Shown here piece by piece: positions 1-60,530 of a DNA stretch of 64,000 nt. The position numbers were made by a program, and so were the translations under genes. The notes under the pieces were generated by a model. It did no database searches and was not told where the DNA came from. It saw only the letters and a program-made list of their open reading frames with translations. This DNA comes from Dictyostelium discoideum (taxonomy: Eukaryota). The DNA lies in the NCBI GenBank assembly GCA_000004695.1, contig CM000153.2, positions 1,760,001 through 1,824,000 on the forward strand, in the 5' to 3' direction. How positions within the stretch are numbered: position 1 is the first letter of the stretch; each line of letters opens with the position of its first letter.

Positions 1-137
1 AAAAAAAAAAAAGGAATCAAATAAATTTAATATACCATTACATGAAAAAAGGAAAAAAATTAAAATGACGGATATAAATTTAAATGACATAAAGTCTTCC
101 CTTTCTATTGTTAATGATTCGTATGTATTTTGAATGC

Positions 138-176
<39 letters not shown>

Positions 177-707
177 CTTGCGCTATATTTTTATTTAAGT
201 AGAAAAAAAAAAAAAAAATAAAAATAAAAAAAAAAAGAAAAAAAGAAAGAAATAAGAAGAAAGAATAAATAAAATAAAATAAAATAAAATAAAAAAGAAA
301 AAAGAAAAGAAGAAAAAAAAAAAAAAAAAAAAATATTATAACTTAATGCACACCATTATTTTTCTTTATTTCACTCCCTTTTTCTTTCTCTTTATTCAAA
401 AACTTTTCTCTTTCTCTAACCTCTAACTTCTTATCTATTTTCTACTATTACTATAACTATTACTATAACTATTACTACTATTCCTATTTTCAATACAATA
501 CCTCAAACCAACAAAACCAAAAACACAACAAAACCAAACCAAACACACAAAAAAACCAAACACACAAAAAAAAAAAAAAAAAAAAAAAATTTCCAATTAA
601 AAAAAAAAAAATCAATGTTTGTCCCTTGATCAAATTTTATCCTTTTTTTTTTTTGTAATTGTTTTATTTTTATTTTTATTTTTTAAATTTTTTAAATTTT
701 TTGAAAT

Positions 708-4026
<3,319 letters not shown>

Positions 4027-5295
4027 ATAAAAAAAAAAAAAAAAAAAAAAAAAGAAAAAAACAAAAAAAAAAACAAAAAAAAAAAAAAAATCAACCCATC
4101 GTAAAAATATCAATTAATTACAATAATAGTATAAAATACTTAATGGCGATTATTTAATAAATAACAATTCACTATTTTTTAGAATTAAAAGTGATTTTTT
4201 CAACTTTTAATAAAAAATTAAAATGATTGGTGTGCAGGTTTATTACTTTTTTTTTTTTTTTTTGACGGTGTGTTTTGGATTTTTTTTTTTTTCTTTTTAA
4301 GTTTTGTTTATAAAAAATTGTAAGGTGAAAATATCAATTTCGTTAGGTTTTTTTTTTTTATAGATTTTTCATTGCGCCTTTTTTTTTTTTTTTTAAACTT
4401 TGCCAAATTACAAGATTTTATTTTTTTTTTTTTTTAAAATTTTAGGAAACCCATTAATTATTGAACTCAATGAAACAATCATGATTTTAATCACAAATCA
4501 CTTTAAAATAAAATTTAGATTGAATACCTAACCCCTCATAATTTCATTCATTAATTCATTTTTTTTTTTTTTTTTTTTTTTTGAGGAGCCCGCCTTTTTT
4601 TAAAATTTTTTTTTTTTTTTGGGAGGGAAATTAGCAGTGTTTCAGATCTAAATATTGTATTGTTGGGTTGTTTATAATAATTTTTTTTTTACATCCAATC
4701 AATTCTTTAACTTGAGATCTCGAATGTTTATAATAGTTGTGTTTTTTTTTTTTATTTTAATTTTGTTTTGTTTTTTTTTTATTTTTTTTTTTTTATTTTT
4801 ATTTTGTTTTTTTTTTTTTTTTTTATTAATAATAATAATAAAAATAATAATGGGAGTTAAAGCGTGCAAACACCAAGTAGGGGGGGGTTTAAATTTAATG
4901 TTTTGCTATGTTGTTTATGAATTAATATGTTATGAATATTAGGGGTGATTAAAAATGGTTATAATACAATAAAAAAAAAAAAAAAAATTATAAAAAAATT
5001 AAAAAAAATTAAATTATTAATTTACAACATAATAGTACCCTATATTTGGGCTGTTTGTTGATGTAATGATAGTTTATTTTTTCTTTTCTTTTAATTATTT
5101 TTAATTAATATTTTTTTTTTTTAAAAAATAATTTTTTTTTTTTTTAATTTTTTTTTTTTTAAAAAAATAACATTTATTTTTAAGTTTACTTTAAATTTGT
5201 TTTTTTTTTTTTTAAAAAAAATATTATAAATAATAATCATAATAATATAATAATGGGGTGATTTAATCAATCAAAATACTTATATACTCCTCTCC

Positions 5296-5356
<61 letters not shown>

Positions 5357-6082
5357 CAACCAATGGTACCATTGTACCATATAAAAATAGGGTTTAAAAG
5401 ACTGCTAATTTAAGATGAATGTAGGTTAAACAATTCCCAGCGAATTAAGGTAACAATTTTTAATAATTATTCGAATTGGTTAAAAAAGGTGATTTAATTT
5501 TTTTTTTTTTTTTTTTATTCACTTTTTTTTTTTTTTTTTATTATTAAAAACTATTTTTTATTGATGAGAAAAATCTCCAATAAAGATGTCCTACCTTCAT
5601 ATTAATTTGAAAATGGTTTATCCTTTTTTGATGTTGGTAGATTTTATTTTTATTTTTATTATAATTTTTTTTTTTTTTTTTTTTTTTTCTTATTATTATT
5701 TTTATAAAGGATGGGGGTTTTATATAAGGTAATAATCAGCATGGAATAAAGGGTCCATCACTTATTCACACCCTTTTTCATTTACACATTTTACTTGATT
5801 TTTCACTTGTCAAAAGGCAAAACTATTTTTTTTTTCCAATTAATACACTCCATATAATTATTCTCAACTTTTTGTCAACCAAAAAGTTGACAACCAACTC
5901 AACAATATATAGTTTCATTCAATTTTGTTGATTGAATTAAATTTAATTAAATTAATAAATGTTTTTATAATTTTATTATTTAATTTTTAAAAAAAATTTT
6001 ATTTATTTATTTTTTATAAACAATTAATTCAAACTTTAATAATAATAATAATATCACACACACAACGGGGGTAAATTTGGCT

Positions 6083-6117
<35 letters not shown>

Positions 6118-7241
6118 GTTTTTCTAAACACTTTTTTATGTGCAACTCCTAGCAATTTCAGACAAGTAAATAATAGTTTTAAAACAATTTTTTTATTTTT
6201 TTACATAAAATCGACCATTTTATTTCTTTTATAATATATAAAGTAGCAATGTGAAAAAAAAAAAAAAAAAAAAAAAAAATAAATAAATTAATAAAACAAA
6301 TTAATTTTACCCCTTTTTTTATTTTATACAATTTTTTATTTTTTTACAAAATTTACTTATTTGATTGATGGTTATATAGCAATTTTTTTGTATTTTTAAT
6401 ATATCTGTGGGTTTAACCACTATAAAAAACCCACATTAAACCACTTAATTTCTACAAAAGTTAATTAAAATATTGTTTGTTTTTCAATGCCCATACACAT
6501 TTATCCGTTTTTGTTGAAAGTATGACGAAGCCAATAGATAAATCAAACAATAAGATTAAAAAATAAAATAAAAATAAAAAATAAAAACAAAATATAATAA
6601 AAAAAAAATAAAAAAAAGTAAATTATTAAACCATCAATATTAATTTTATTCCAATACACCACTAGGTGATAATAATTTATGGAAAAATTAATAAATAAAT
6701 AAATATTAAATATATAAATAAATAAATTAATAAGTAAAAATATAAATAATTACAATAAAAGTAAAATAAAAAAAGATTTATCAAATAATATCAATATACC
6801 TTACAAATTTAAATTAATAGTTTACATTATGTTAATTTGGTTTTATTTATATTGTTATTTATTATCCATTCAAAATTATTACATTCCAATTTAATTTTTT
6901 TTTTTTTTTTTTTTTTTTTGGTTTTTTTTTTTTTTTTTTTTTTCCTAAAAAAATAACAAAAATACTATCCAAATGCTCGGCTCTCAGCAATAATGGGTGG
7001 AATGAATGGTTTTTTAATTAAAATAAATTAAATTAAAATTAAAATAAATTAAAATTAAAAAAAAAAAAAAAAAAAAGAAACAATTTCTAATTGGTCGAAA
7101 GTAATTTATTTTAAATATATTTTTTTTAATTTTAATTAAATGGTATGGATATAGACAGTGGTAGTTTATTAAATACCACCATTTTTGTGTTATATATTAA
7201 AGTTTATTCAAATTAATTTTTTATTAAAAAATAAATAATAA

Positions 7242-7274
<33 letters not shown>

Positions 7275-8358
7275 AAATTAAAAATTAAATAAAAGCTACA
7301 GAAAAATAAATAACCAACTAAATTAAATTAAAAAACTTTTTTATTTGTTGTCGACATATTTCATTTCGTTGATGCAATAAAATTAAATTGTATATCTAGG
7401 ATTTGAATAAACTTTTTTTTTTTTTTTTTTTTTTTTTCCCAAAAAAATTTGGTTATAATAATATAGCCCAATAAAAAATAAAAAAAAACTAACCAATTAA
7501 ATTTAACTAAAATTTTAGGTTCATTTTATTATTATTATTATTTTTATTATTTTCTATCTTTAATGAATTGGTGGTAGTGAGTTTTTTTGAGATTTCGTTT
7601 ATATTTAACCAAGGAGATTTAAATTGACCCAATTAGATTTTCCCAAAAAAAAAAAATATTATTGTAATAATTTACCATTCACCACAAATTGTTAAAATGT
7701 AATTGAGAGTGTGAAATTGAAAAGGTGTGATACATTGAGATTTTAATTGTGGAAGTTAAAATCAAACACAAAATGTTAGTTCTTTAACTTTTTATTATAA
7801 TAATAAAATCAAAATCAAAATCAAAATCAAAAAACCAAAAAGAATTTGAAAGATTAATATGATGCAATCTCTTTATTTTTTGAGAATTCTGATTTTGTTT
7901 ACATAAATGGTAAGTTTTTTTTTTTTTTTTTTTTCAATTAACCATCAATTTTTTGTTGTAATTGTTTGTTTTTTTTTTTTTTTAATTATTTTAAGTGTCA
8001 ATTAATGGTGTTTAAATTATTGGTATTATATGTTTTTCTACAATAAATCATTGAAATTATAATAATTGTAGATGGGAATAAATCAATACTATCACTCTAT
8101 AAAAAATTTGAAGAAAAAAAAAATTGTAACACTGGGTGATAAAAAAAATAATTTGAATGAAATGTTGATAATTGCATTGAACTTTATTTTAATAATTTAA
8201 CTATAATAATGATTTTAATTTTTTTTTATGGGTAAAAAATGATTAATAATAATAAAAATAATTATTAAATACAAATTTCCCCAGTATTAGGGGTATTAAA
8301 TTGTATAAATTTGATTATAAGTTTTCTTTACCTTTTTTTTAAATTGCCAAATTCAATC

Positions 8359-8397
<39 letters not shown>

Positions 8398-9698
8398 GTG
8401 GTTGATTTGAATAGGGGTGGGGTAAGTAATTAATTATATTTATATATATTTTTTAGGGGTTTTAATAGATGTTGTCATATGCATCATCAAAAAGAGATAC
8501 TGTTTTAATTTAGTAATACTTGTTTTTTTTTTATGTTAAATTTTTTTTTTTATGTTAAATTTTTTTTTTTTTTTTTTTTCGGAGTGGGTTATTTGATAAT
8601 TTATTAGTAGTTTTAATAAGTTGGATACGTTGTGTGTATTAGTGTTGAATGAATTTGAATTGAAATTATTTTAAAATGATTTTTTTAATGGAGAAGGGGG
8701 TGATTTAAAATTTTTTTTTTTTTTTTCACAAATATTATTGTTGTTTTTTTCATTATTTCGAACAGTTTACAATCTCAATGGAGCACTTTTTGTATTAATT
8801 TATATGGGAAATATGTGATGGTTTTAATATTTATATATATTTATATTCAAAAAACAATTTAATAATTTTTATTTGGAGTAATTGTATTCACAATAAACCC
8901 ACATACACAAAAAAATACTCTTTCAATAATTCTTAATAGGTAGAGTGAGTGTGAATAATCATTTGAAAAACGAACAGGTTTTTTAATTTATTTATTAAAA
9001 CCTATAACCAAACAAGAGACAAAATTAATTTTTTTTTAATACAAGCCCAAATATATTATTGATAATAATTTTTTATTATAATTATATAATTATAAATAAA
9101 TATAAATAATTATATATATATATATATTTATATATATATTGCATATATAATTTTTTTTAGATATATATTAACAATAACCCCTTTTAAAATATTGACCATT
9201 TGAATTTATTTAATATATTTATTGGGTATGTAATTTTCAAATGATTTAACCACAATAAAAGGAAAACTATACTTGTTACTTAAAGAATAAAGTTTTTTTT
9301 TTTTTTTTTTTCTTAAAAAAATTAATAAATTAAAAATAATGGTTTTTCCTAACAACAATAAATTTAAAAATAGTAGTTTTGATAATACTAGTAGTTTATA
9401 ATAGTAAATACATGTAAATATTTAGCATTTTTTAATATAAATGCATTAAATTTTGTTTTTATTTAAATGATACACAATGTGATGATAAAAAATGATGACA
9501 ACATAAATTTTTTAAAATTTTCATTAAAGTATCACTATTTTCATAAATTTATTTCTATAGTTGTTAAAAATATTTTTAAATAAATATTGATATTCAAAGA
9601 ACAACAAAAAATAAAATATAATTTATTATATAAATCTATTAATATTTTTTCCTAAAATATATTTTCATATAAATACAAGTAAAAAAAAAAAATTGTCA

Positions 9699-9699
<1 letters not shown>

Positions 9700-9793
<94 letters not shown>
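9700..9793. repeat. (TAA)n microsatellite, about 31 units
   Basis: Uninterrupted aat/taa trinucleotide repeat in intergenic DNA. It is read as a poly-Ile ORF in the six-frame track. Confidence 0.95.
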
Positions 9794-9794
<1 letters not shown>

Positions 9795-10739
9795 TTAAAT
9801 GAAGATATTGTAATGAATTTTCTGATTTCTATTTTTTTTTTTTTTTCAAAAATTTATTTTAATATTGTTATTTTTGATTGTTACAAATGTATTATTATAA
9901 AAATCATTAAAAATCATATTTATCCATAGATTATTTTTCATTATATTTTTAAAAAATGTACATACAAAAATTATATATATATATATTTTTTTTTTTTATT
10001 CCTATAAATATATATAATTTTAATTATTTTATATTTTTTTTATTTTTTATTCCAATCTAATATTGATTTTATGTTTTATTGTAATTGGTGGTAATTCCAA
10101 AGATATAATTAAAACTCGTATGTGATTTGAAATGAGATATATACTTGAAAATTATTTAAAATGATGGTTTTTTTATTTTTTTTTTTTTTTGATTAAAGGT
10201 ACCTTTTTCTATTTTTTTTTGTGGTTTTTTAAAGTTTGTGGTTGTGGTTTATACATGTTGATATAAGATGTATGTGTTAAATAATAAATCAACCCCCCAA
10301 TCTCACATTTTAACTATTATTTTTGTAAATATTATAATTTTATTTTGATTTTTTAAAATTAACACATACATAGATTAATATAAATGGTTAGTGAGCCAAA
10401 TTAATTTATTTTATAGTAATAATTTATAATGATAATTGCAAAAGGAAATAACATGTGTGTTCTATTTTATTGTATAAAAAAAATTAAAAATAAATTAAAT
10501 ATAATTGTAATGGTGTTATAGTGTAGTGGTGGTAGAAGTAATAGTCAATTACTATAAACCAATAAACACACACAAACTACCACTTATTTTTCACACCACA
10601 CTATTTAACTCACCACTAATACTTCAATTGGTGAATAAAAGGAACAACTACAAAAAAACAATAATAATAACAACCATAAAAAAAAAAAAAAAAAAAAAAA
10701 AATTAAATTGATAAACACCACCACACACTATACATATAT

Positions 10740-10740
<1 letters not shown>

Positions 10741-10808
<68 letters not shown>
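10741..10808. repeat. (TAA)n microsatellite, about 22 units
   Basis: Uninterrupted trinucleotide repeat, seen directly. Confidence 0.95.
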
Positions 10809-10809
<1 letters not shown>

Positions 10810-11659
10810 TAAAAAATGTTTGTTATTACCACAGTTATATAAGCACACAACACAAAACAACACAAACTAAATTATAAAATAAACATTACCACACATTATA
10901 ATTACCTCCGGTACAACTTTAACAATAATATATCTAATATATATAAACTTTCGATAGTATAAATTCCAATAATCACACATATACCAACACTACATATTAC
11001 ACTTTTTTATAAAATCTATTCAATGATTGAAATAAATTAAAGGAATACTTAAATTAAAAAAATTAATAAACCACAAACTACCACATGAATTGTTATTATA
11101 ATGATATTGACAACAAATTTTTACCACTAACTCACTCACTATCTCACTCACTCACACACTCACTCATTATCCATCTATCATCCAAACTTTTTTTTTCTTA
11201 CACTCATATATGTTTATCACCCTTCTTTAAATCAAATGTAAAAATAAAACCAAAAAAAAAATTATAAATAAAAAAAATTAAAATTAAAATTAAATAAAAA
11301 ATAATATTAAAAAAAATAATAATTTATTAAAATCATCACCAAATATACAACAACAAATAATAGAACAACAATAAATTAAAAAAAAAAAAAAAAACACTAC
11401 CAAAAAACAACAGCTGCAATAACAACAGCTACAACTACAACTACAACAACAATAACAACAGCCAATGTTTTTTTTTTCTTTTTTTTTTTTTTTTCTTTTT
11501 TTTTTTTTTTTATTATTATTTTTAATTTAATGATTTAATTAAAAAATTTGTTCTTTTGTCCCAATTCAACTAGAAAATTAAACAAATTATGAATGTTTTT
11601 ATTTTTTTCATTAAAACATTTAAAAAAAACAATAGGTTTTTAAAATTTAATTTATTGGA

Positions 11660-11690
<31 letters not shown>

Positions 11691-12329
11691 CAACTATTCA
11701 AAAAAAAAAAACCAATTATTTTGATATCAAAATAAATCATTTTTTTTTTGTTGCATTCAATCCAGTGAGCAATAATATTTTCTGTAAAAAAAAAAGTAAG
11801 GTAAATAATAAATGGTTAACCTTTTTTTTTTTTTTATTTTGTGGATTTTTTTTTTTTTTTTTTTTTCTAGTCAACCATAACACCTTTTTTTTTTTATTTT
11901 TTATTTTTTTTTAAAAAACTATTTTTTTTAAATTTTTTGCTTTTTTTTTTTTTAAAATTTGATTAGTACTCTATTATTGAATAGCTAATCAAATTGTGGT
12001 TTAATTCTAAATCACCATTCTTCTTTCGATGACTATTTATTTATTATTGGACCTTTTGGTATTAAAATAATATCATAAGATTTAAATGGTTTTTATAAGT
12101 TGAAAATAAAAAAAATTAAAAAATAATTATTATTTTTTTTTTTTTAATTTTAAAAAAAAAAAAAAAAAAAAATTGATTGTTAATATTTTATTTCCACAAT
12201 CACAATCATTTAATTATTTTTTTTGTTCAATACCTAATATTTTTTATTCTTGGTAAATATCTTTTTTTAAAAAAAAATAATCATTATTTTTTTTACATAT
12301 TAATTATAAAAAAAAAAATAATAATAATA

Positions 12330-12372
<43 letters not shown>

Positions 12373-13234
12373 CTATTACCATAGTTTTTGATGTTGTAAT
12401 TTTCGATTCCAATTGATTTTTTTATTTACCTGCCTAATAATATCATAAATAATTTTATTATTATTTTTAAAAAATAAAAAATTAAAAAAAAAAAAATCAC
12501 CAAAAAAACAGATATAATCTCTTTTTTTATTTTCATTTTTTTTTTTTTTTAAATCAAAATAAAAAAAACATTTTAAAACAAATTAATTTATTATAATAAA
12601 AAAAAAACAATCATTTTAAAATGTTTTTCAAACAATATCACATTTGGAATTAAAAATAATTAAAATCACATTAATATCATTAGTGATGAATAAAATAAAA
12701 AAAATAAAATAAATCAATTAACCAATCTATAAATCAATTCCATTTATGTAATTGATTTTAAACCTCAATAATAATAATATTATAAACACCATCTGTTAAT
12801 TACCACTATTTTTGTACAAATATATATAAATGTTTTTTCCTTTTTTTTTATTATTATTCTGATAAAAAATCCTCGTTCTAAGTTAACTGTTTGTTTTGAA
12901 TTCCTAAGAGGATTTTTGTACAGTGATGATCAACCTTTGTATTCATTAAATAATAAATAGACACAATTTATAATAAATTTTAAAATTTATTTGTAGATTA
13001 TTTTTTTTTTTTTTTATTGTAACTTTATGTCATTTTTTTATTATTGTTTTTTTTATTTTGTTGTAGTTTTTGTTGTTGTTATTTTTTTTGTGTTTGTTAT
13101 TTATTTATTTATTAATTAAAAAAAAAAAAAAAAAAAAAAAAAGAGCAAATTTGCATTCTTAATTAATAACCACTTCACACTGCTGCCAATTAATATTTGG
13201 ATCTACATATCAAACGCACTCACACCCCAAATTA

Positions 13235-13237
<3 letters not shown>

Positions 13238-13264
<27 letters not shown>
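13238..13264. repeat. (CA)13 dinucleotide microsatellite
   Basis: acacacac... run; (GT)n runs also occur at 16995-17031 and 41397-41420. Confidence 0.9.
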
Positions 13265-13273
<9 letters not shown>

Positions 13274-13760
13274 CGATAAATGCAACTATCACTACCACTA
13301 CTATGCTTTTCATCACCAACAAATCATTTATTTTTGTTTTAAAAATTTTTCATAAAAAAAAAAAAAAAAATTTAAATAAAAAAAAAAAAAAATCCTGATA
13401 CACCATTAACGCACTCATATCCATTTTCAGTTCTAAAATATGCACAACACATTTGAAATTTTTTTTTTTTTTTTTTTTTCTGTTGTTGGTTTCATAATCT
13501 TTAAAATTGTTACCAACTCACCCCATTTTTAAAATTGCTTGTGTGTGCTTTTTGTCAAAAAATTAAATTTCAATAATTGAATTGTGAATCACTTTCAACT
13601 TTAACCTCAATTTGGTCTCAACAATCTCAATATATGAAAGGGTTTTCCTTTTGATAATCAATAATGATGAAAAAAAAAAACTATTTTACAAACAAAGATT
13701 TTTAAATAACAATTAATTTTTTCATAAAATGATTATTATCAGGTTAGGCAATTTTTCTTT

Positions 13761-13802
<42 letters not shown>

Positions 13803-14300
13803 CAAAATAAAAAAAAAAAAAAGAACACCCAAGATGTATTAAATTAAAAGTTTTTTCAATTATTTTTTTTTTTTATCACTCTTACAAATAATTATTTGTT
13901 TAAAAAAAAAAAAATAATAGATATAAAAAAAAATAAATAATAATATAAATAATAAATAATATAATATATAAATAATTATATAAATATAAATATAAAATTA
14001 ATAATTTTTTTTATTACTTACAAATTTAAAAAAAAAAAAAAATATATACATATTAAAATAAAAAAAAAAAATTAATCAAAAATAACAATAACAACAATAG
14101 AAAAAAAAGTATTTACTTTATAATTATATTTGTACATTATTTTTATACTACAAACTTTAATTATTTTTAATTTATTAAATTTAATATAAATTCAACATAT
14201 ATAACACTTAATCCCCCATTTTTATTTTTTTTAAAAAAAATAAATTATTAAATAAAAAAAACAATTCCAACCAATCATACCCATTCTTTAAACAATTAAG

Positions 14301-14347
<47 letters not shown>

Positions 14348-14789
14348 AACTACAAGTAATACACCTACAATCACATAAAAACCAAAACAACATAAGAAAT
14401 TAATTAATTAAAACCCCTATTTTTTTTTTTAAATCGATTTTTTTATATTTTTATTTTTATTTATTTTTAAATTTATTTTTAAATTTATTTTTGTTTTTCA
14501 AACTTATTTTAAATTTTTTTTTTTAATTTTTTATTTTTTTTTTTTTTTTGAAAACAGATAAAAACATTTGCGCAAGTTTTATTTATTGATACATCACCAA
14601 ACCATTCTCATTCATAAATCTATTGTATTTTTTGTTCATATGAATTTTTTCCACTTACTTAAAAAAAAAAAAAAAAATTATATAAAATAGCTTAGTGCTC
14701 CCTCCTCCTTTATTTTTATTTTTTTTTTTCCCAATTTAGATTATTAAGTAATTAAAATCACAATCTTTAAAAAAGAAAATCTCAAAGGT

Positions 14790-14828
<39 letters not shown>

Positions 14829-15071
14829 TTTTTAATCCCTTTAAAACAAATAATTTTTATCATTATCATAAATACCACATCAATTTTTTTATTTTTTTTT
14901 TTTTTTAATTTTTTTATTTTTTAATTTGTAAATTTAACTTAATAATTTAGTTGTAATTATTTTTTTTTTTTTTTATTTTTTTATTTATTATTTTTTTTTT
15001 GCTCTTTCTACTTTTTTTCCTATCTCACTTTTTATCTCTATTATTTTTTAATTTTTTTTTTTACATCGAAC

Positions 15072-15113
<42 letters not shown>

Positions 15114-15487
15114 AAAACTACAAACCATAACTAGTGTAGTTTATAACGATTATTAAACCCTTAGACTGTTTGGTTTATTTAAAATTTTTTTTTTTTTTTT
15201 TTTTTTCATATCCTCTAAATTTTCCCAAACACAGAAAAACTATTTAACTCCTTCGATTCATTGCATGGTTTTTTTTTTTTTTTTTAATTTTTCAAAATTT
15301 ATTAATCTCGCCCAACCAATCAACAATTCATTGCAAATTCAAAAAAAAAAAAAAAAAAAAAAAACAGATATTTTTAATTTTTAATTTTTTTTGTAAATTT
15401 TGATTATTGGATATTTATAGAAAGATTTTTTTTTTTTTTTCAATTAAAAATCACATTCCAATTGTTGCCAAAATTTATTTTCATTAA

Positions 15488-15528
<41 letters not shown>

Positions 15529-16334
15529 AATTGTTTTTAAAAAAAAAAAATATGTTTTTTTTTATTAAATAGTATCACTCTTTGCATTATTTATTTATTT
15601 ATTTATTTATTTTAATTTTAAAAAATTTGTTAAAAAAAAAAAAAAATTTAATCATACCTTAAAAAATACAAAAGGTATTATTTTTTTTGTTTGAAAATTT
15701 TTATTTTTTCCACACCCACTCATTACACTGGACGAAATCTCACCGATGTGAAATTAGCAAAATTACAAAAAAAAAAAAAAAAAAAAAAAAAAGAAAAGAA
15801 AAAAAAAAAAAATTAAAAAAAAAAATTAAAGTTGCAATGACCTCAATATTGGAATGATTTTTTTTTTTATATATTTTTTTATATTTTTTAATCAAAATTC
15901 AAAAAAGTTCTTATTGAATTTTTTTTTAAAACTTAGATATTGCAATATATGTTGTCATTTACATTGTTGTCTTTTATTCTGTAATTTGGAAGCCCATTAA
16001 CATTTTTATTTTTGGTGTAAATATGCAAACAAATGTTTTTTTTATTTTGACCTTTTTTTTTTTTATTAAAAAAATAAAAATAAAAATTGCATCCAATGCC
16101 AATTTTTCCCATTACCCCTCATCATCAACACCTTCCACTCCCTTTAAATTTTTTTAAATTATCAATACTATTATTATTATTATTATTTTTTTTTTTTTTT
16201 TTTAATTATTGTTAAAAAATTAAAAAAAAAAAAAATCACAATAAAAAAAAAAAAAAAATCAATCAAAAAAAAAAAAATAGTATATATTTATTAATTTATT
16301 TTTCTTTATTTATACAGTGTATCAATTATAGACA

Positions 16335-16386
<52 letters not shown>

Positions 16387-17584
16387 TAAAAAAAAAAAAA
16401 AAAAAAAAATTATTTCAATATTATTGGTCAATTAATTTAAAGGTAATTTAACACATTTTTATTTATTTTTTCCTTTTTCCATTGACATTTTTCACACCAA
16501 AAAATTATTATTAGAATTTTTTCCATTTTTTCCATTGTTTTTTTCCATTGTTTTTTTTTGGATTTTATTTTATTCTATTTTTTTTTTTTTATGGATTACA
16601 ATTTTATGTATAATAATAAAACCCACAAAAAAAAAAAAAAAAAATCTTACCTTTTCAAATTATGAGAAAATTCTATATCCATGCCAACTCGGCTTTTTTA
16701 TCATCGCACACAATAATATCACACACTTTTTTCTGTGTGTGAGTGTGTGTAGCAATATTTATCACATCATTCCACTATCGACCCCTTTAAATTGTGTTTT
16801 TCATTGTTGCGTCAATATTGGCGATGTAAAATTGTGTTTTCTTAGTTTATAAAGTGTGATTAAAAATAACAACATTCTTAAAATTTTAAAACCGTTTGTG
16901 TTTTTTCACAGCTTTATATTTGATTTGTAACTTTAAAATTTAAAAAAAAAAAAAAAAAATTAAAAAATCCACACCCCCACTCACCAACACTCAATCCAAA
17001 TAGTTTTTTTTTTGTGTGTGTGTGTGTGTGTGTTGTATCTCAAACAAGTAGATCGATGAAAGTTTTTTTATTTTTTTTTTAATAAACTGGTGCCAGAATT
17101 CTATTTTTAAATTTATTTTTTTTTAAATATTTTTTTTTTTTTTTTTTTTATTTGATAGAAACCCATTCAAACCATTCATTGTTTTTAATTTTTATTTTTT
17201 TTTTTTTTATTTTTTTTATATTTTAAAAAAAAATACCTATGGTTCCAATTTTTCAAATTAAATTCTCAAAAATAATTATTACCATTGTGTGTGTTTGTGT
17301 GTTTTGAAATTATATCACCATAACAACCCACTTTAAACCCACCCTTTCTTTTTTTATACATTTTTTTTTTTTTTTTTTTTTATTAATAAAAAAAAAAAAA
17401 ACTGTTTTATTAGAAATCATTTCAAAAAAACACCTCACCATTATTTTTAATTTATTTTATTTGTTATTTTTTTTTTTAAAAATTATTTCATCTAATTATT
17501 TCTTTATTTATTGATTTATTTTATATTTTTTTTAATTTCTAAATTCATAAATCTTAATCACATTGTTTTAATCAACTAAATTAT

Positions 17585-17588
17585 CTAT

Positions 17589-17627
<39 letters not shown>

Positions 17628-17632
17628 TTAAT
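17585..17632. repeat. (TTTA)12 tetranucleotide repeat about 270 bp upstream of the zinc-finger gene start
   Basis: atttatttattt... seen directly, followed by (TTAA)-like repeats to about 17660. Confidence 0.9.
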
Positions 17633-17780
17633 TTAATTAATTAATTAATTTATTTATTAATTTATTTTTTATTTTATTTTTATGATTTTAAAAATTATTT
17701 ATTTAAAATAATAGTAATATTACAACAAAAAATTTCTCAATTCAATCATACACACATTATTATTAAAATTCCAAAAAAAA

Positions 17781-17812
<32 letters not shown>

Positions 17813-17901
17813 AGAAAAAAAAAAAATAAATAATAAATATATAAACAAAACCAATTACAAACTAATAAAATTTTAATAATAAAATAAAATTAAATAATAA
17901 A

Positions 17902-20775
<2,874 letters not shown>

Positions 20776-35280: not shown

Positions 35281-37504
<2,224 letters not shown>

Positions 37505-39492: not shown

Positions 39493-41319
39493 TTATAATT
39501 CGGATTGAAGTTTTCTTAATTCTTCTAAAAACTTTTGTTCATTATTTATTTTTTCAATTGCAGTTGGTGGAATAAATTCTCCAGAATTTAATTTTTCTTT
39601 TAATACTTCAACCTCTTTGAGTTTTCTTTCAACATTTCTAATTTTCTTTTCAATTGGTGTTAGTTCTCTCTTTGGTTCATCTGCAGCTGGTTTTGTTGTG
39701 GTGGTGGTAGTATTGTTTGTTGTTGTTGTTGATGATGGTTTTTGTTTTGGTTTAAAAGTTGATGATGATTTGGCAGAAGCTAAATAAACTTTAAAACCAC
39801 TTGGAAGTGGAGCACCCATTGCAGGTGGTGAAGTTACAACTGGTGGAGCAGCTTGCATATTTCTAAGTGATGGTGGTGTATATTTTTGTGGTTGTGGTGA
39901 AGATTCTTTTTGTTGTTGTATACTTGGATAGACGATTCTTTCATTTGGGAAGACGAGTGGATTTAAAGGTCTCCAAGAGGCTTGATAAAGTTCAGGTATG
40001 TTTTCTTGATAGACGATAGTGTTATCGTATTTGATGATTTTAACACCATTGTCAACACGAATACGTGGTGAAAGGACAGCGGTCATAAAGTGAACGGAAT
40101 CAGCAGACCATTCAGTGTAAATGGCACAATGAGATTGAGTGCCACAAATTCTCTTGTAACGTGTTAAATCCCAAAAGTCCATATCACCTTGAAGATTACC
40201 AAAACCACCCAAACATAACAATTGACCATTTGGAGAGAAACGAATGGTGTTTCTTGGATTGAGACCAAAATCGACCAATGGTTCACCCTTTAAATTGAAA
40301 AGTGTAGTTTGTGATGGCATATTACCATAGCAAACCATGAATTGATCCAAAGTTGGGCTCCATTGAACGTCGTGAATTGGTCCTTTGATGTTGAGATTGA
40401 AACTACTACCATCTTGTGAGAGGAACCAAAGACCGGTTTCACCATAGTATGATTTACCCGATTTATCAGTGTCGGTGAATGTGTGGACAAGGATTGCGTT
40501 ACCCTTTTTATTCCACAATACCTTTGCTTCTGAAGCCTTGAAAAACTTCAAATGAGAGCAATATTCGTTGACAGTTGGATATGAGTAGATACGTGCTGAA
40601 CCTGGGGTGCTACCTTTCTCTGGTACAAAGGTTGCGATTTTGTATGGACCACCATTGGTAGCTGGTGCAAACTCGAATGAGGAGATGTCTTGTAATTTGA
40701 TCTTCTTTGCCAATACACCAATTGAACGACCATTGAAAAAGTGTACCTCGTTTGAGATCAATTTACCTGCCAATACTTCATCATCGGTCCACTTGATGAG
40801 TGGCCAATTCTCTTGGTTACAATATTTCTGTGAGGTTTTATAGAGGATGGAGGCCTGTTTGATATCCCACACAATGAGGTTGTTTTCATTGTTATTGTAT
40901 TCTGACATTCTCTCCCATGTTAAGAGGAAACTGTTTTGTGGTGAAAATGATATCATTCCAACATTTGGTCTATTGATTACAGAGTGAACTGATCCACCAT
41001 CACTATTGCAAATTACAATCTCATTCAAATTAACATATGCAATCAATGTACCATCCTTACTGTATTCAACATGACGACAATCTCCATTACTATATGATGG
41101 TAAATTTAAATTCTTTCCATATTGTTGCCCAATCTCTTGATATGCATTGGTTTTTGATCTAACTACAAATTGTAATTTTGGTGTAGTTAATGTTTCTGTT
41201 GTTGTTGTTGTTGTACTATTTGATGCTACTGATGTTAATGTTGGTGAGCTTTGTGATGGTGATGGTGATGTTGTAGTTGTAGTAGTAGTATTATTATTAT
41301 TATTATTTGGGGCACTCAT
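39493..41319 (-). CDS. eif2a: Eukaryotic translation initiation factor 2A (eIF2A), WD/beta-propeller protein
   Basis: Single 608-aa ORF. It has eIF2A-type propeller repeats (IRFSPNGQLLCLGGFGNLQGDMDFWDL, LWFLSQDGSSFNLNIKGPIHDVQWSP), a C-terminal charged coiled tail and a poly-T/N N-terminus. Confidence 0.8.
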   Translation of the reverse strand: MSAPNNNNNNTTTTTTTSPSPSQSSPTLTSVASNSTTTTTTETLTTPKLQFVVRSKTNAYQEIGQQYGKNLNLPSYSNGDCRHVEYSKDGTLIAYVNLNEIVICNSDGGSVHSVINRPNVGMISFSPQNSFLLTWERMSEYNNNENNLIVWDIKQASILYKTSQKYCNQENWPLIKWTDDEVLAGKLISNEVHFFNGRSIGVLAKKIKLQDISSFEFAPATNGGPYKIATFVPEKGSTPGSARIYSYPTVNEYCSHLKFFKASEAKVLWNKKGNAILVHTFTDTDKSGKSYYGETGLWFLSQDGSSFNLNIKGPIHDVQWSPTLDQFMVCYGNMPSQTTLFNLKGEPLVDFGLNPRNTIRFSPNGQLLCLGGFGNLQGDMDFWDLTRYKRICGTQSHCAIYTEWSADSVHFMTAVLSPRIRVDNGVKIIKYDNTIVYQENIPELYQASWRPLNPLVFPNERIVYPSIQQQKESSPQPQKYTPPSLRNMQAAPPVVTSPPAMGAPLPSGFKVYLASAKSSSTFKPKQKPSSTTTTNNTTTTTTKPAADEPKRELTPIEKKIRNVERKLKEVEVLKEKLNSGEFIPPTAIEKINNEQKFLEELRKLQSEL

Positions 41320-42372: not shown

Positions 42373-42445
42373 CGCCCAAAGGGGGGCTCGAACCCCCGAC
42401 CACAAGGTTAAAAGCCTTGCGCTCTACCGACTGAGCTATCTGGGC
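42373..42445 (-). tRNA. tRNA-Lys (anticodon UUU), 73 nt, no intron
   Basis: The minus strand reads GCCCAGATAGCTCAGTCGGTAGAGCGCAAGGCTTTTAACCTTGTGGTCGGGGGTTCGAGCCCCCCTTTGGGCG. It has a 7-bp acceptor stem with one G-U pair, D-loop AGCTCAGTCGGTAGAGC (A box), anticodon loop CTTTTAA (TTT) and T-loop GGTTCGAGCC (B box). An oligo-T terminator follows. Confidence 0.9.
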
Positions 42446-59487: not shown

Positions 59488-59530
<43 letters not shown>

Positions 59531-60135
59531 CAAAAATAGAATTTATTATTATAGGTATGTATATATATTTATTAGGTTTTTTTTTTTTTGTTTTTTTAAT
59601 TACTATTATTATTATTATTTAAAAAAAGATATAGTTTTTTATTTTATTTTATTAATACAATGAAAATAAATAATTATGGTACAATAATGTGACTGAATAA
59701 ATATTTTTTTTATATAAAAAAAAAAATTGTCACGAGATAAAATGTTTGTCAAAAAATAAAAATAAAAAAAAAATAAAAGACTATTATTTCATAAGGTAAT
59801 TATGAATGTGTTTGTGAGTTTATGAATAACAAAACAAAAAACCACAAATATCAAAAAAAAAAAAAAAGAAAAAAAATAAAAAAAAGTGTTTGTTGTGTGT
59901 ATATGTGTGTACACAAAAGATCGAAATATAAAAAAAAAAAGAGAGTTAAAAGGATAAATAGCGTGTTTTTTAGTTTTTTTTTTTCTGTGCACGATTTGAA
60001 TTTTTTTTTTTTTTTTTTATTTTTTCAGTTTTTTTTTTTTTTTTATTTTTTTTTAAAATTTTGTGAAACATTTGGATGGATTTGCACTCGCATTTGCAAA
60101 TATTGAAATTATACCAAAAAAAAAAAAAAAAAAAT

Positions 60136-60422: not shown

Positions 60423-60530
60423 ATGTCAGATATCGATGATTTTGAGTCAGATGGTGAGGGTGGAAAAATTTACAAAAAGTTTGTTATTGACCATAAAAAA
60501 AGAAAACAACACCAGTTAAAAACAAAATTA

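What the first reader, a model, noticed from the sequence alone, without database searches (positions are those of the whole stretch)
4030..17900. About 13.9-kb stretch without coding potential in an otherwise gene-dense genome
Between the PTB-like gene stop (4026) and the C2H2 zinc-finger gene start (17902) the six-frame track contains only repeat-derived or very short ORFs. I could not find a single codon-like exon by eye. Dictyostelium intergenic regions are typically 1 kb or less. A desert this size suggests an extended regulatory domain for the downstream poly-Q C2H2 factor, one or more non-coding RNA genes, or a decayed repeat.
Basis: seen in the sequence. Interest (0 to 1): 0.5.

Follow-up and report, generated by a model that had tools for sequence, protein, structure and literature searches.

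The report
Conserved, transcribed gene desert beside transcription factor
A 13.9-kb stretch with no protein-coding genes in the gene-dense Dictyostelium discoideum genome is real, is copied into catalogued non-coding RNAs, and has been kept next to the same transcription-factor gene throughout social-amoeba evolution, so it is most likely a long regulatory region and not junk.

Summary
Window 4028-17901 (AX4 chr4:1764028-1777901) has no coding signal. Every other non-coding gap in the window is 1.5 kb or less.

Part of it is already known. Rosengarten et al. 2017 list five minus-strand lncRNA models in the interval, and no annotated gene lies between DDB_G0284321 (PTB-like) and DDB_G0284255 (C2H2 factor).

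New here:
- A large gene-free spacer lies upstream of the C2H2 orthologue in all eight other dictyostelid genomes sampled. It is at least 12 kb in D. purpureum, at least 7.2 kb in P. violaceum and 4.6-7.3 kb in H. album. Neighbouring spacers there are 0.07-1.6 kb.
- The right half is more conserved than ordinary spacers: four-species identity 0.54 against 0.27-0.39. A core at 11.0-13.9 kb reaches 0.64, and a 275-bp block (13510-13784) is 90% or more identical.
- A 91-nt element (10992-11081) is conserved in D. purpureum and P. violaceum.
- Substitutions show no codon periodicity, no ORF is conserved, Rfam gives no match, and there are no complex repeats.

Best reading: a conserved, transcribed cis-regulatory domain for the C2H2 gene. 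Function is inferred. The left half was compared only with D. purpureum.

The parts
4028..17901 (.). The whole non-coding interval (13,874 bp; AX4 chr4:1764028-1777901) between the PTB-like gene and the C2H2 gene
   Evidence: No coding signal. No annotated gene between the two neighbours in the published tables. No gene call in L004 for window 11273-17901.
65..4027 (+). Left flank: DDB_G0284321, a multi-exon PTB/hnRNP-L-like RRM protein
   Evidence: Coordinates from PMC5295588 File S6. Pfam RRM_1 and a weak RRM_8 match. The orthologue lies in the same position and orientation in H. album and D. purpureum.
17902..20775 (+). Right flank and presumed regulatory target: DDB_G0284255, a 957-aa poly-N/Q protein with two C2H2-type fingers
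   Evidence: Coordinates. Listed as a C2H2 factor with orthologues in D. purpureum, D. lacteum, P. pallidum and D. fasciculatum (PMC6873476 supplement). The finger region is 81-99% identical in five other species. No Pfam hit at E<=0.01.
5345..6471 (-). Published lncRNA model CUFF_3346 / DDB_G3973221
   Evidence: PMC5295588 File S4/S6, chr4:1765345-1766471. Expression correlation is 0.43 with the C2H2 gene and 0.24 with the PTB-like gene.
9796..11464 (-). Published lncRNA model CUFF_3348 / DDB_G3972683; it contains the deeply conserved element
   Evidence: correlations 0.36/0.19. Its ends abut the (AAT)n repeat and a T56 run.
11919..13753 (-). Published lncRNA model CUFF_3349 / DDB_G3972629; it covers most of the conserved core
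   Evidence: correlations 0.13/0.04. Its high-coordinate end abuts the T51 run at 13752-13802.
15514..16225 (-). Published lncRNA model CUFF_3350 / DDB_G3969999
   Evidence: correlations -0.32/-0.51. Separated from the next model only by an A-rich run at 16214-16277.
16288..17510 (-). Published lncRNA model CUFF_3351 / DDB_G3970029; it starts 392 nt upstream of the C2H2 ATG and runs divergently from it
   Evidence: correlations 0.31/0.08.
10992..11081 (.). Deeply conserved non-coding element. Its core ATCTATTCAATGATTGAA contains the palindrome TTCAAT-G-ATTGAA.
   Evidence: Near-identical (one or two substitutions) in D. dimigraforme, and in D. firmibasis over the part its locus reaches (from window 11008). 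80% identical over 91 nt in D. purpureum, 7.7 kb downstream of its PTB-like gene. 84% over 51 nt in P. violaceum, 2.9 kb upstream of its C2H2 gene. With a complexity filter both hits exceed all 120 shuffles. Single copy in the window.
10992..13902 (.). Conserved core of the desert, 4.0-6.9 kb upstream of the C2H2 ATG
   Evidence: Four-species identity is 0.64 for 11000-14000, against 0.27-0.39 for other spacers and 0.57-0.65 for third codon positions. Mann-Whitney p=1.7e-5. It overlaps the 0 h Hi-C loop-anchor bin chr4:1772000-1774000.
11327..11488 (.). Conserved block (CAA/AAC-rich)
   Evidence: Four-way identity 0.88.
12023..12093 (.). Conserved block
   Evidence: 90% or more four-way identity in 40-nt windows.
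13143..13336 (.). Conserved C-rich blocks flanking a variable (CA)16 repeat at 13238-13269
   Evidence: Four-way identity 0.77 for 13143-13232 and 0.91 for 13270-13336. (CA)16.
13510..13784 (.). Near-invariant 275-bp block; the wider block 13480-13755 has four-way identity 0.92
   Evidence: Second-longest block of 90% or more identity in the 22-kb four-species alignment, exceeded only by one inside the GH77 coding region. Alignment. No codon periodicity. RNA folding z-scores are about 0 on both strands.
13823..13902 (.). Conserved block just beyond the T51 run
   Evidence: Four-way identity 0.86.
16755..17060 (.). Cluster of short conserved footprints 0.85-1.15 kb upstream of the C2H2 ATG (for example 16783-16828 and ATCTCAAACAAGTAGATCG at 17037-17055)

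Best explanation
The interval is a conserved, non-coding and transcribed cis-regulatory domain (a gene desert) belonging to the C2H2 transcription-factor gene DDB_G0284255.

Shown:
- It contains no protein-coding sequence.
- It yields five catalogued low-abundance minus-strand lncRNA fragments. One of them starts about 390 bp upstream of the C2H2 ATG and runs divergently from it.
- A large gene-free spacer occupies the same place, upstream of the C2H2 orthologue, in every dictyostelid sampled.
- Its right half evolves more slowly than ordinary spacers and contains discrete near-invariant blocks.
- One 91-nt element is conserved as far as D. purpureum and P. violaceum.

Inferred:
- The conserved blocks are distal enhancer, silencer or promoter modules bound by sequence-specific factors. 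They include a palindrome (TTCAATGATTGAA) and conserved CACCC/GTGTG boxes.
- These modules control the time and place of C2H2 gene expression, probably by looping to its promoter.
- The lncRNAs are by-products of, or contributors to, that activity (enhancer-type or divergent-promoter transcription) and are not independent RNA genes.
For: Non-coding:
- Codon scan negative.
- None of 34 ATG-ORFs of 20 codons or more in 11000-17901 is intact in all four species.
- Substitutions are spread evenly over the three phases (p=0.16-0.87), against p<1e-23 in three coding controls.

Transcribed:
- Five minus-strand lncRNA models lie in the interval (PMC5295588).
- GC is 18.5% inside the models and 14.9% outside. 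This matches the paper's genome-wide contrast of 17% against 13%.

Conserved architecture:
- The order cyclophilin, DPH1, C2H2, spacer is kept in eight other genomes.
- The spacer is at least 6.5-6.7 kb in D. citrinum and D. firmibasis, at least 12 kb in D. purpureum, and at least 7.2 kb in P. violaceum.
- It is 5.1 kb in C. fasciculata and 4.6-7.3 kb in H. album, where the next gene is again the PTB-like gene in the same orientation.
- Other spacers in those loci are 70-1642 bp.

Constraint:
- Four-way identity is 0.54 for the desert and 0.64 for the core, against 0.27-0.39 for other spacers and an intron and 0.57-0.65 for third codon positions.
- Mann-Whitney p=1.3e-4 for the desert and 1.7e-5 for the core.
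- A 275-bp block is 90% or more identical in four species.
- The distance from the 11019 palindrome to the ATG is 6.7-6.9 kb in D. discoideum, D. firmibasis and D. dimigraforme.
- The deep element at 10992-11081 is significant once low-complexity hits are excluded: 0 of 120 shuffles reach it, in two species.

Target:
- The C2H2 factor is deeply conserved.
- The desert lies upstream of it but downstream of the other neighbour.

DNA-level rather than RNA-level function:
- No excess RNA folding and no Rfam match.
- Conservation is only slightly higher inside the lncRNA models than outside (0.575 against 0.48), and is high in the untranscribed gap 11465-11918 (0.65).
- A 0 h Hi-C loop anchor falls in the bin holding the conserved core.
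Against: - No functional data exist: no reporter, deletion, chromatin-accessibility or transcription-start evidence was available for this locus.
- Expression correlations between the lncRNA models and the C2H2 gene are weak and mixed (-0.32 to 0.43).
- The 400 bp immediately upstream of the ATG are poorly conserved (0.31).
- Close-relative conservation could be measured only for window 10980-17901. The left half (4028-10990) was compared only with D. purpureum and showed no complex similarity.
- No sequence element is detectably shared with H. album or C. fasciculata. At that depth only the architecture is conserved.
- One annotation (D. dimigraforme) places part of an 884-aa gene model over DNA orthologous to 10986-12100. 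Only short junk ORFs are there.
- Assignment of the target gene rests on position alone.
Confidence: 0.55

Rival explanations
1. One or several functional lncRNA genes. The selected product is the minus-strand RNA itself, possibly one transcription unit of about 12 kb that read-mapping broke at homopolymer tracts. It would act in cis or trans independently of any enhancer function of the DNA.
For: - All five catalogued models are on the minus strand.
- Several model ends sit exactly at homopolymer or microsatellite tracts, as expected if unmappable sequence fragments one transcript. The 16225/16288 gap is just an A-rich run.
- By my tally of the blocks against the model coordinates, about 77% of conserved-block bases lie inside models that cover about 61% of the right half.
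- The 275-bp block ends close to the 5' end of model 11919-13753.
- lncRNA loci are enriched at large-scale loop anchors in D. discoideum (PMC11754127).
Against: - No thermodynamic structure signal in the most conserved block (z = -0.03 and +0.54). Only a weak hairpin (-3 kcal/mol) is predicted in the deep element.
- No Rfam match even at E<=5.
- Conservation is nearly as high outside the models (0.48-0.65) as inside (0.48-0.65).
- The 3.3-kb gap 6471-9796 has ordinary GC, so it is not a mappability artefact.
- Adjacent models have opposite expression correlations.
- lncRNAs of this catalogue are typically of low abundance.
Confidence: 0.2
2. A chromosome-architecture element whose large size and conserved blocks serve chromatin organisation, not one gene's transcription. 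Examples are a loop anchor, an insulator or boundary, or a replication origin.
For: - A 0 h Hi-C loop (chr4:1752000-1754000 with 1772000-1774000) has one anchor in the 2-kb bin that holds the conserved core.
- The + strand GC skew changes sign near 10.3-10.6 kb, next to the deeply conserved element.
Against: - The loop score is low (12.7, against about 20-48 for neighbouring loops).
- That paper attributes anchors chiefly to convergent, highly transcribed gene pairs.
- I examined only the 0 h rows shown.
- A skew switch has several possible causes, and origins are not mapped in this organism.
Confidence: 0.1
3. Neutral AT-rich spacer, or a relic of old insertions (decayed transposon or repeat expansion) with no function; the transcription is noise.
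For: - Very low GC (down to 7-8% in places) and dense homopolymers.
- Against D. purpureum the left half shows only low-complexity similarity.
- The spacer is two to three times larger in group 4 than in groups 1-2, so part of it may be expansion.
Against: - The right half is significantly more conserved than ordinary spacers, with near-invariant blocks.
- The spacer is retained in every lineage sampled, although neighbouring spacers are under 1.7 kb.
- There are no complex direct or inverted repeats.
- The deep element is single-copy.
Confidence: 0.07
4. Hidden protein-coding content: micro-exons of an unannotated gene, or conserved small peptides.
For: - D. dimigraforme's annotation extends an 884-aa model into DNA orthologous to 10986-12100.
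- Block 12023-12093 can be read as a short ORF tail in some species.
- One 21-aa ORF (12727-12792, minus strand) is intact in three of four species.
Against: - No codon periodicity of substitutions anywhere in the desert.
- None of 34 ORFs is intact in all four species.
- A 1-nt deletion in D. dimigraforme breaks the 12023-12093 reading frame.
- Three other annotations call nothing there.
- The codon scan is negative.
Confidence: 0.03
5. Assembly artefact (collapsed or chimeric repeat region).
For: - D. purpureum scaffolds break inside the orthologous region, and one carries an N-gap. The region is therefore hard to assemble.
Against: - An independent D. discoideum assembly matches window 11273-32884 in one alignment at 99.3%.
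- Three other species are collinear over the right half.
- Published RNA-seq models and Hi-C bins map onto it normally.
Confidence: 0.02

Closest known systems
Intergenic lncRNA loci of the D. discoideum developmental transcriptome (Rosengarten et al. 2017, G3; PMC5295588)
   Same: Five entries of that catalogue are these very sequences. They are transcripts of at least 200 nt, lie entirely between annotated genes, are single-exon, and have GC (18.5%) above that of untranscribed spacer.
   Different: The catalogue treats them as five unrelated entries and does not discuss the locus. Typical lncRNAs there are limited by spacers of about 700 bp. Here five same-strand models sit in one 13.9-kb spacer that is conserved in position across Dictyostelia and contains near-invariant blocks.
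Gene deserts / genomic regulatory blocks with conserved non-coding elements around developmental transcription-factor genes in animals (established knowledge; not tested against any database here)
   Same: - A gene-free interval many times the genomic norm lies next to a deeply conserved transcription-factor gene.
- Gene order around it is conserved over long evolutionary distance.
- Discrete non-coding blocks are conserved as strongly as coding sequence.
- The interval is transcribed into low-level non-coding RNA.
   Different: - The scale is about 14 kb rather than hundreds of kb.
- Sequence conservation fades beyond group 4 and P. violaceum.
- Enhancer activity is untested.
- The lineage evolved multicellularity independently, and I found no description of such blocks in Dictyostelia in the searched library.
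Divergent promoter-upstream and enhancer-associated transcripts (uaRNA/PROMPT, eRNA; established knowledge)
   Same: Model 16288-17510 starts 392 nt upstream of the C2H2 ATG on the opposite strand. Transcripts are of low abundance (a catalogue-wide property), unspliced, and overlap conserved putative regulatory blocks.
   Different: The models are 0.7-1.8 kb each and span 12 kb in total, far longer than typical PROMPTs. Start sites are not mapped, because model ends coincide with unmappable homopolymers. Instability was not tested.
Dictyostelium developmental promoters with CA-rich / G-box elements recognised by G-box binding factor (recalled from the literature; a lead, not a test)
   Same: Conserved CACCC-type and GTGTGTG boxes occur in the conserved blocks, for example 13213-13232, 13517-13528, 13539-13552 and 13825-13835. 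YCACCC occurs 25 times in the window against 11.6 expected, and 9 of the 25 are in the desert.
   Different: Known examples lie within a few hundred bp to about 1-2 kb of their genes. Here the boxes lie 4-13 kb from the ATG. Binding was not tested, and I scored no curated motif model.

Membership tests
Intergenic lncRNA locus (Rosengarten 2017 criteria) | Transcript model of at least 200 bp lying entirely within an intergenic region, with no tiling path to a neighbouring gene | tested here: met
   Five models of 711-1834 bp have published coordinates that map to window 5345-17510. The offset was fixed by three gene coordinates that match window ORFs exactly.
Intergenic lncRNA locus (Rosengarten 2017 criteria) | Lack of coding potential | tested here: met
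   Codon scan, ORF conservation and substitution periodicity are all negative.
Intergenic lncRNA locus (Rosengarten 2017 criteria) | Measured expression during growth or development | not testable with these tools
   Taken from the paper. The expression table rows for these ids were not in the stored supplement. Only correlation coefficients were readable.
Regulatory gene desert with conserved non-coding elements | Gene-free interval far larger than the genomic norm, adjacent to a conserved transcription-factor gene | tested here: met
   13.9 kb, against 1.5 kb or less elsewhere in the window and a genome mean of about 0.7 kb. The neighbour is a C2H2 factor conserved in all taxon groups.
Regulatory gene desert with conserved non-coding elements | Conserved synteny of the desert with its flanking genes across species | tested here: met
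   Eight other genomes keep DPH1, C2H2 and the spacer in order. H. album and D. purpureum also keep the PTB-like gene on the far side.
Regulatory gene desert with conserved non-coding elements | Non-coding elements conserved above the neutral level | tested here: met
   For 10980-17901: four-way identity 0.54-0.92, against 0.27-0.39 for spacers and 0.57-0.65 for third codon positions. The deep element is conserved in D. purpureum and P. violaceum. Not measured with close relatives for 4028-10979.
Regulatory gene desert with conserved non-coding elements | Elements act as enhancers or silencers of the neighbouring gene | not testable with these tools
   Needs reporter or deletion experiments and chromatin data.
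Known structured RNA families (Rfam 15, including snoRNAs, snRNAs, SRP, RNase P/MRP) | Covariance-model match | tested here: not met
   No hit at gathering thresholds in the window apart from one tRNA at 42373-42445. No hit at E<=5 in 3500-18500. No tRNA in the interval.
Dictyostelium small ncRNA genes with the upstream DUSE element | [A/T]CCCA[C/T]AA about 60 nt upstream of a conserved small RNA (motif recalled from the literature) | tested here: not met
   Eight matches in the window against 10.4 expected. Two lie in the desert (8226, 16621). The 16621 copy is absent from D. firmibasis and altered in D. citrinum, and no conserved RNA-like block follows at the expected distance.
Transposon relic or complex repeat | Terminal or internal complex repeats, multiple copies, or residual transposon ORFs | tested here: not met
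   Only homopolymer or microsatellite 'repeats'. No ORF with coding character. Orthologous and collinear in four species. I had no Dictyostelium transposon library to search directly.
Protein-coding gene | Conserved ORF with codon-position-dependent substitution | tested here: not met
   with strongly positive coding controls.
Divergent promoter-upstream transcript | Antisense transcription start within a few hundred bp of the gene's own promoter | tested here: inconclusive
   Model 16288-17510 (minus strand) begins 392 nt upstream of the ATG. Model ends track mappability limits, and no start-site data were available.

The most novel reading that the evidence does not exclude
Social amoebae, an independent origin of multicellularity with a very compact genome, have animal-style genomic regulatory blocks. 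In this reading a deeply conserved transcription-factor gene is held in synteny with its neighbours (PTB-like, DPH1, cyclophilin) across the whole of Dictyostelia by a large regulatory desert. That desert carries near-invariant non-coding elements, including a palindrome-bearing element conserved from D. discoideum to P. violaceum, and it is transcribed into lncRNAs. Long-range cis-regulation of developmental regulators would then have arisen convergently with multicellularity.
Probability: 0.35. Interest if true: 0.7.

Novelty: new member of a known kind. Interest (0 to 1): 0.55.

Why it matters
D. discoideum regulation is usually pictured as short promoters in spacers of about 0.7 kb. A 14-kb non-coding domain that has stayed next to one orphan C2H2 factor since the dictyostelid ancestor suggests that this factor needs unusually complex control. 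Its blocks are as conserved as coding sequence.

The work gives concrete, small targets for CRISPR deletion and reporter tests in a tractable organism: the 91-nt element at 10992-11081 and the 275-bp block at 13510-13784.

It also gives five anonymous catalogue lncRNAs a genomic context. And it offers a test case for whether gene deserts with conserved non-coding elements arise wherever developmental gene regulation evolves.

Tried and rejected
- **Rfam.** Gathering thresholds on the whole window and E<=5 on 3500-18500 gave nothing in the interval. ARAGORN found no tRNA there.
- **DUSE motif scan.** Not enriched and not conserved.
- **RNA folding.** The most conserved block folds no better than shuffles on either strand. 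My first fold_alignment used wrongly guessed orthologous coordinates and is meaningless. RNAalifold on the deep element gives only a -3 kcal/mol hairpin.
- **Repeat search.** Only A/T homopolymers and microsatellites.
- **Protein searches.** Exact look-up of the 957-aa C2H2 ORF failed, although the second assembly's annotation also calls a 957-aa product at that place. The two sequences probably differ in a repeat.
- **Offset test.** Fitting lncRNA ends to homopolymers was not decisive alone, because another offset scored equally. The offset was then fixed by published gene coordinates.
- **Raw BLAST significance of the deep element.** It failed against shuffles (16/150 and 12/150 reach it), because shuffles produce poly-A/T matches. 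It passed only after a complexity filter, chosen after the fact.
- **Deeper sequence conservation.** Shared 11-mers and fuzzy footprint searches in D. purpureum, P. violaceum, H. album and C. fasciculata found nothing beyond chance.
- **Second palindrome.** TTCAATAATTGAA at 13569 is not conserved in D. citrinum or D. dimigraforme, so I do not claim a motif family.
- **Literature.** No paper text mentions DDB_G0284255. None on conserved non-coding elements or gene deserts in Dictyostelium turned up in the searched library.
- **Not obtained.** Expression profiles of the five lncRNAs were not in the stored supplements. The ncRNA dutA was considered as a candidate occupant but could not be checked, because no sequence or coordinates were found.

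Full report
**1. Where the window comes from.**
- The 608-aa ORF at 39493-41319 (minus strand) is identical to D. discoideum AX4 eIF2A, XP_638688.
- Published AX4 coordinates match window ORFs exactly if 1,760,000 is added. DDB_G0284255 is chr4:1777902-1780775 (+) and the window ORF is 17902-20775. DDB_G0284321 is chr4:1760065-1764027 (+). DDB_G0284267 is chr4:1799493-1801319 (-) and eIF2A is 39493-41319 (PMC5295588 Files S6/S7).
- The window is therefore AX4 chr4:1760001-1824000, plus strand.

**2.
- Between the PTB-like stop (4025-4027) and the C2H2 ATG (17902) lie 13,874 bp. The longest ORFs are low-complexity strings of 105 and 95 aa.
- A codon-usage log-likelihood scan trained on 15 long ORFs of the window scores +30 to +60 per 150 nt in the flanking genes and stays negative through 4050-17850.
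- The only exceptions are (AAT)n at 9698-9798 and (TAA)n at 10742-10809, which mimic Asn codons.
- By the same scan the next-largest non-coding gap in the window is 1.5 kb. The genome mean is quoted as about 700 bp.
- GC is 16.6%.
- A second D. discoideum assembly aligns to 11273-32884 in one piece at 99.3% and carries no gene call upstream of the C2H2 gene.
- Repeat searches return only A/T homopolymers and microsatellites.

**3. What was already known.**
- Rosengarten et al. 2017 list five lncRNA models between these two genes, all on the minus strand. In window coordinates they are 5345-6471, 9796-11464, 11919-13753, 15514-16225 and 16288-17510.
- They cover 47% of the interval and have GC 18.5%, against 14.9% for the rest. 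This matches the paper's genome-wide contrast of 17% against 13%.
- Many model ends abut homopolymers or the AAT repeat, and the gap between the last two models is just an A-rich run. The ends therefore reflect mappability and are not mapped termini.
- Their developmental correlations with the C2H2 gene are weak and mixed: 0.43, 0.36, 0.13, -0.32 and 0.31.
- The paper does not discuss the locus.
- A Hi-C study lists a weak 0 h loop with one anchor in chr4:1772000-1774000, which is window 12000-14000. It also reports that lncRNA loci are enriched at large-scale loop anchors.
- Forbes et al. 2019 list DDB_G0284255 as a C2H2 factor with orthologues in all four taxon groups.

**3a. How related loci were fetched.** I reached them through the neighbouring DPH1 gene and, at the end, through the D. 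purpureum PTB-like protein.

**4. Comparative architecture.** The order cyclophilin, DPH1, C2H2, gene-free spacer is kept in every genome sampled. The C2H2 identity of the neighbouring gene was confirmed by 81-99% identity of the finger region in the five species tested.

| Species | Gene-free spacer upstream of the C2H2 orthologue |
|---|---|
| D. firmibasis | at least 6.7 kb |
| D. citrinum | at least 6.5 kb |
| D. dimigraforme | 5.7 kb, then a doubtful 884-aa model lying on DNA that aligns to non-coding window 10986-12100 and holds only junk ORFs |
| D. purpureum | 1.76 kb on the C2H2 scaffold plus 10.2 kb on the PTB-like scaffold, so at least 12 kb, interrupted by a scaffold break |
| P. 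violaceum | at least 7.2 kb |
| C. fasciculata | 5.1 kb |
| H. album | 4.6 kb to the annotated end of the PTB-like model, 7.3 kb to its last homologous exon; same orientation as in D. discoideum |

All other spacers in the P. violaceum, C. fasciculata and H. album loci are 70-1642 bp.

**5. Sequence constraint.** I aligned window 10980-32900 with D. firmibasis, D. citrinum and D. dimigraforme using MAFFT. The fraction of D. discoideum positions identical in all four species is:

| Class | Four-way identity |
|---|---|
| First and second codon positions (two best-conserved coding controls) | 0.94-0.97 |
| Third codon positions | 0.57-0.65 |
| Four ordinary spacers and an intron | 0.27-0.39 |
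| Desert 10980-17901 | 0.54 |
| Core 11000-14000 | 0.64 |
| Block 13480-13755 | 0.92 |

- In 100-nt bins the desert exceeds other non-coding DNA: median 0.53 against 0.325, Mann-Whitney p=1.3e-4. For the core p=1.7e-5, and for 14000-17899 p=0.004.
- The block 13510-13784 is the second-longest stretch of 90% or more four-way identity in the 22 kb. Only one stretch inside the GH77 coding region is longer.
- Further blocks lie at 11327-11488, 12023-12093, 13143-13336 and 13823-13902. Short footprints lie 0.85-1.15 kb upstream of the ATG.
- The 400 bp next to the ATG are poorly conserved (0.31).
- The constraint is not coding. Variable sites are evenly spread over the three phases (p=0.16-0.87), against p<1e-23 in three coding controls. 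None of 34 ATG-ORFs of 20 codons or more is intact in all four species.
- It does not look like structured RNA. Folding z-scores are -0.03 and +0.54, and Rfam gives nothing.
- Conservation tracks the lncRNA models only weakly: 0.575 inside, 0.48 outside, and 0.65 in the gap 11465-11918.

**6. A deeply conserved element.**
- The best match between the D. discoideum desert and the 10 kb downstream of the D. purpureum PTB-like gene is window 10992-11081, at 80% over 91 nt.
- It lies 7.7 kb from the PTB-like stop in D. purpureum and 7.0 kb in D. discoideum.
- The same element is the best match to the P. violaceum upstream region: 84% over 51 nt, 2.9 kb upstream of its C2H2 gene.
- It is near-identical (one or two substitutions) in D. 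dimigraforme, and in D. firmibasis over the part its locus reaches (from window 11008).
- Raw bit scores are reached by 8-11% of block shuffles, because shuffles create poly-A/T matches.
- With a filter of GC at least 0.15 and homopolymers of 8 or fewer, no shuffle out of 120 approaches either hit: maximum 41-42 bits against 77.9 and 50.0. I chose the filter after seeing the data.
- That the same 90 nt is the top hit in two independent comparisons, at a collinear position, is the stronger argument.
- The core ATCTATTCAATGATTGAA contains the palindrome TTCAAT-G-ATTGAA and is single-copy in the window.
- I found no convincing copy in H. album or C. fasciculata.

**7. Interpretation.**
- The facts point to a conserved, non-coding, transcribed regulatory domain serving the C2H2 gene. 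The desert lies upstream of that gene and downstream of the other neighbour. The factor is ancient. The spacer is retained everywhere. The conserved blocks look like clustered binding sites: a palindrome and conserved CACCC and GTGTGTG boxes.
- Which gene is regulated, and whether the DNA or the RNA is the selected entity, are inferences.
- The main rival is a functional lncRNA, at about 0.2.
- An architectural element is possible. Neutral spacer, hidden coding sequence and assembly artefact are each unlikely for the right half.

**8. Limits.**
- Close-relative conservation was measured only for 10980-17901. The left half was compared only with D. purpureum, which is too distant to detect even most right-half blocks.
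- No expression profiles, start sites or chromatin data were available for the locus.
- Strand assignments come from one study.
- Four-way identity counts gaps as differences and depends on one MAFFT alignment of low-complexity DNA.

**9. Verdict.** The finding is real. Part of it is already in the literature, as five anonymous lncRNA entries. With its conservation added, it is a new example of a known kind of feature, a regulatory gene desert with conserved non-coding elements, in a lineage where I found none described. Interest is moderate: 0.55.

Noticed in passing
window 7000-17900: The + strand GC skew changes sign near 10.3-10.6 kb. G exceeds C at about 7.0-10.5 kb, most strongly at 8000-8900, and C exceeds G from 10.6 kb to the C2H2 ATG. 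YCACCC boxes switch strand with it: six on the minus strand at 4943-8703 and three on the plus strand at 11217, 13518 and 17339. The window has 25 against 11.6 expected. The switch lies next to the deeply conserved element.
   Followed up: partly
L008 20485-21537 (D. dimigraforme), orthologous to window 10986-12100: The public annotation places part of an 884-aa gene model over DNA that is non-coding in D. discoideum and holds only short junk ORFs. Three other annotations call nothing there. It is probably a mis-prediction.
   Followed up: partly
L006 and L012 (D. purpureum scaffolds GL871013 and GL871257): Both scaffolds end inside the orthologous desert, 1.76 kb upstream of the C2H2 gene and 10.2 kb downstream of the PTB-like gene. 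L012 also carries a gap of about 480 N. The region evidently resisted assembly, and the two scaffolds are probably adjacent.
   Followed up: partly
window 12000-14000 (chr4:1772000-1774000): A 0 h Hi-C loop anchor listed in the PMC11754127 supplement falls in the bin holding the conserved core. It pairs with chr4:1752000-1754000, and the score is low (12.7). I did not examine other stages.
   Followed up: partly
window 258-800 (-): The published antisense RNA CUFF_3345 (chr4:1760258-1760800) overlaps the 5' part of the PTB-like gene.
   Followed up: no
window 17902-20775: The C2H2 protein has no Pfam match at E<=0.01, although two CX4-5CX12HX4H fingers are visible. Its finger region is 92% identical in P. 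violaceum, and even the DNA is 78% identical over 493 nt, which is unusually strong for this distance.
   Followed up: partly
window 13569-13581: A second copy of the palindrome type (TTCAATAATTGAA) lies inside the near-invariant block. These are the only two TTCAATNATTGAA matches in 64 kb (0.18 expected). This copy is altered in D. citrinum and D. dimigraforme.
   Followed up: yes
PMC5295588 supplementary Files S4 and S6: The CUFF identifiers in File S4 do not agree with those given for the same coordinates in File S6. For example, chr4:1765345-1766471 is CUFF_1436_1 in S4 and CUFF_3346_1 in S6. The S4 name column appears scrambled.
   Followed up: no
window 59521-60003 (+): Another published lncRNA model (DDB_G3970957, chr4:1819521-1820003) sits in the 1.1-kb spacer between the 1771-aa minus-strand gene and the gene starting at 60423. 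Both of its ends abut T runs.
   Followed up: no
L011 1076-5078 (H. album): The annotated GH77/CBM20 gene model also carries RT_RNaseH domains, which suggests a retroelement fragment fused into the model.
   Followed up: no
window 708-2948 and 35281-36516: Several long mechanical ORFs read through AT-rich introns in frame. An example is the string ...[15 protein letters not shown]... inside the PTB-like ORF. ORF lengths in this genome therefore overstate exon lengths.
   Followed up: no
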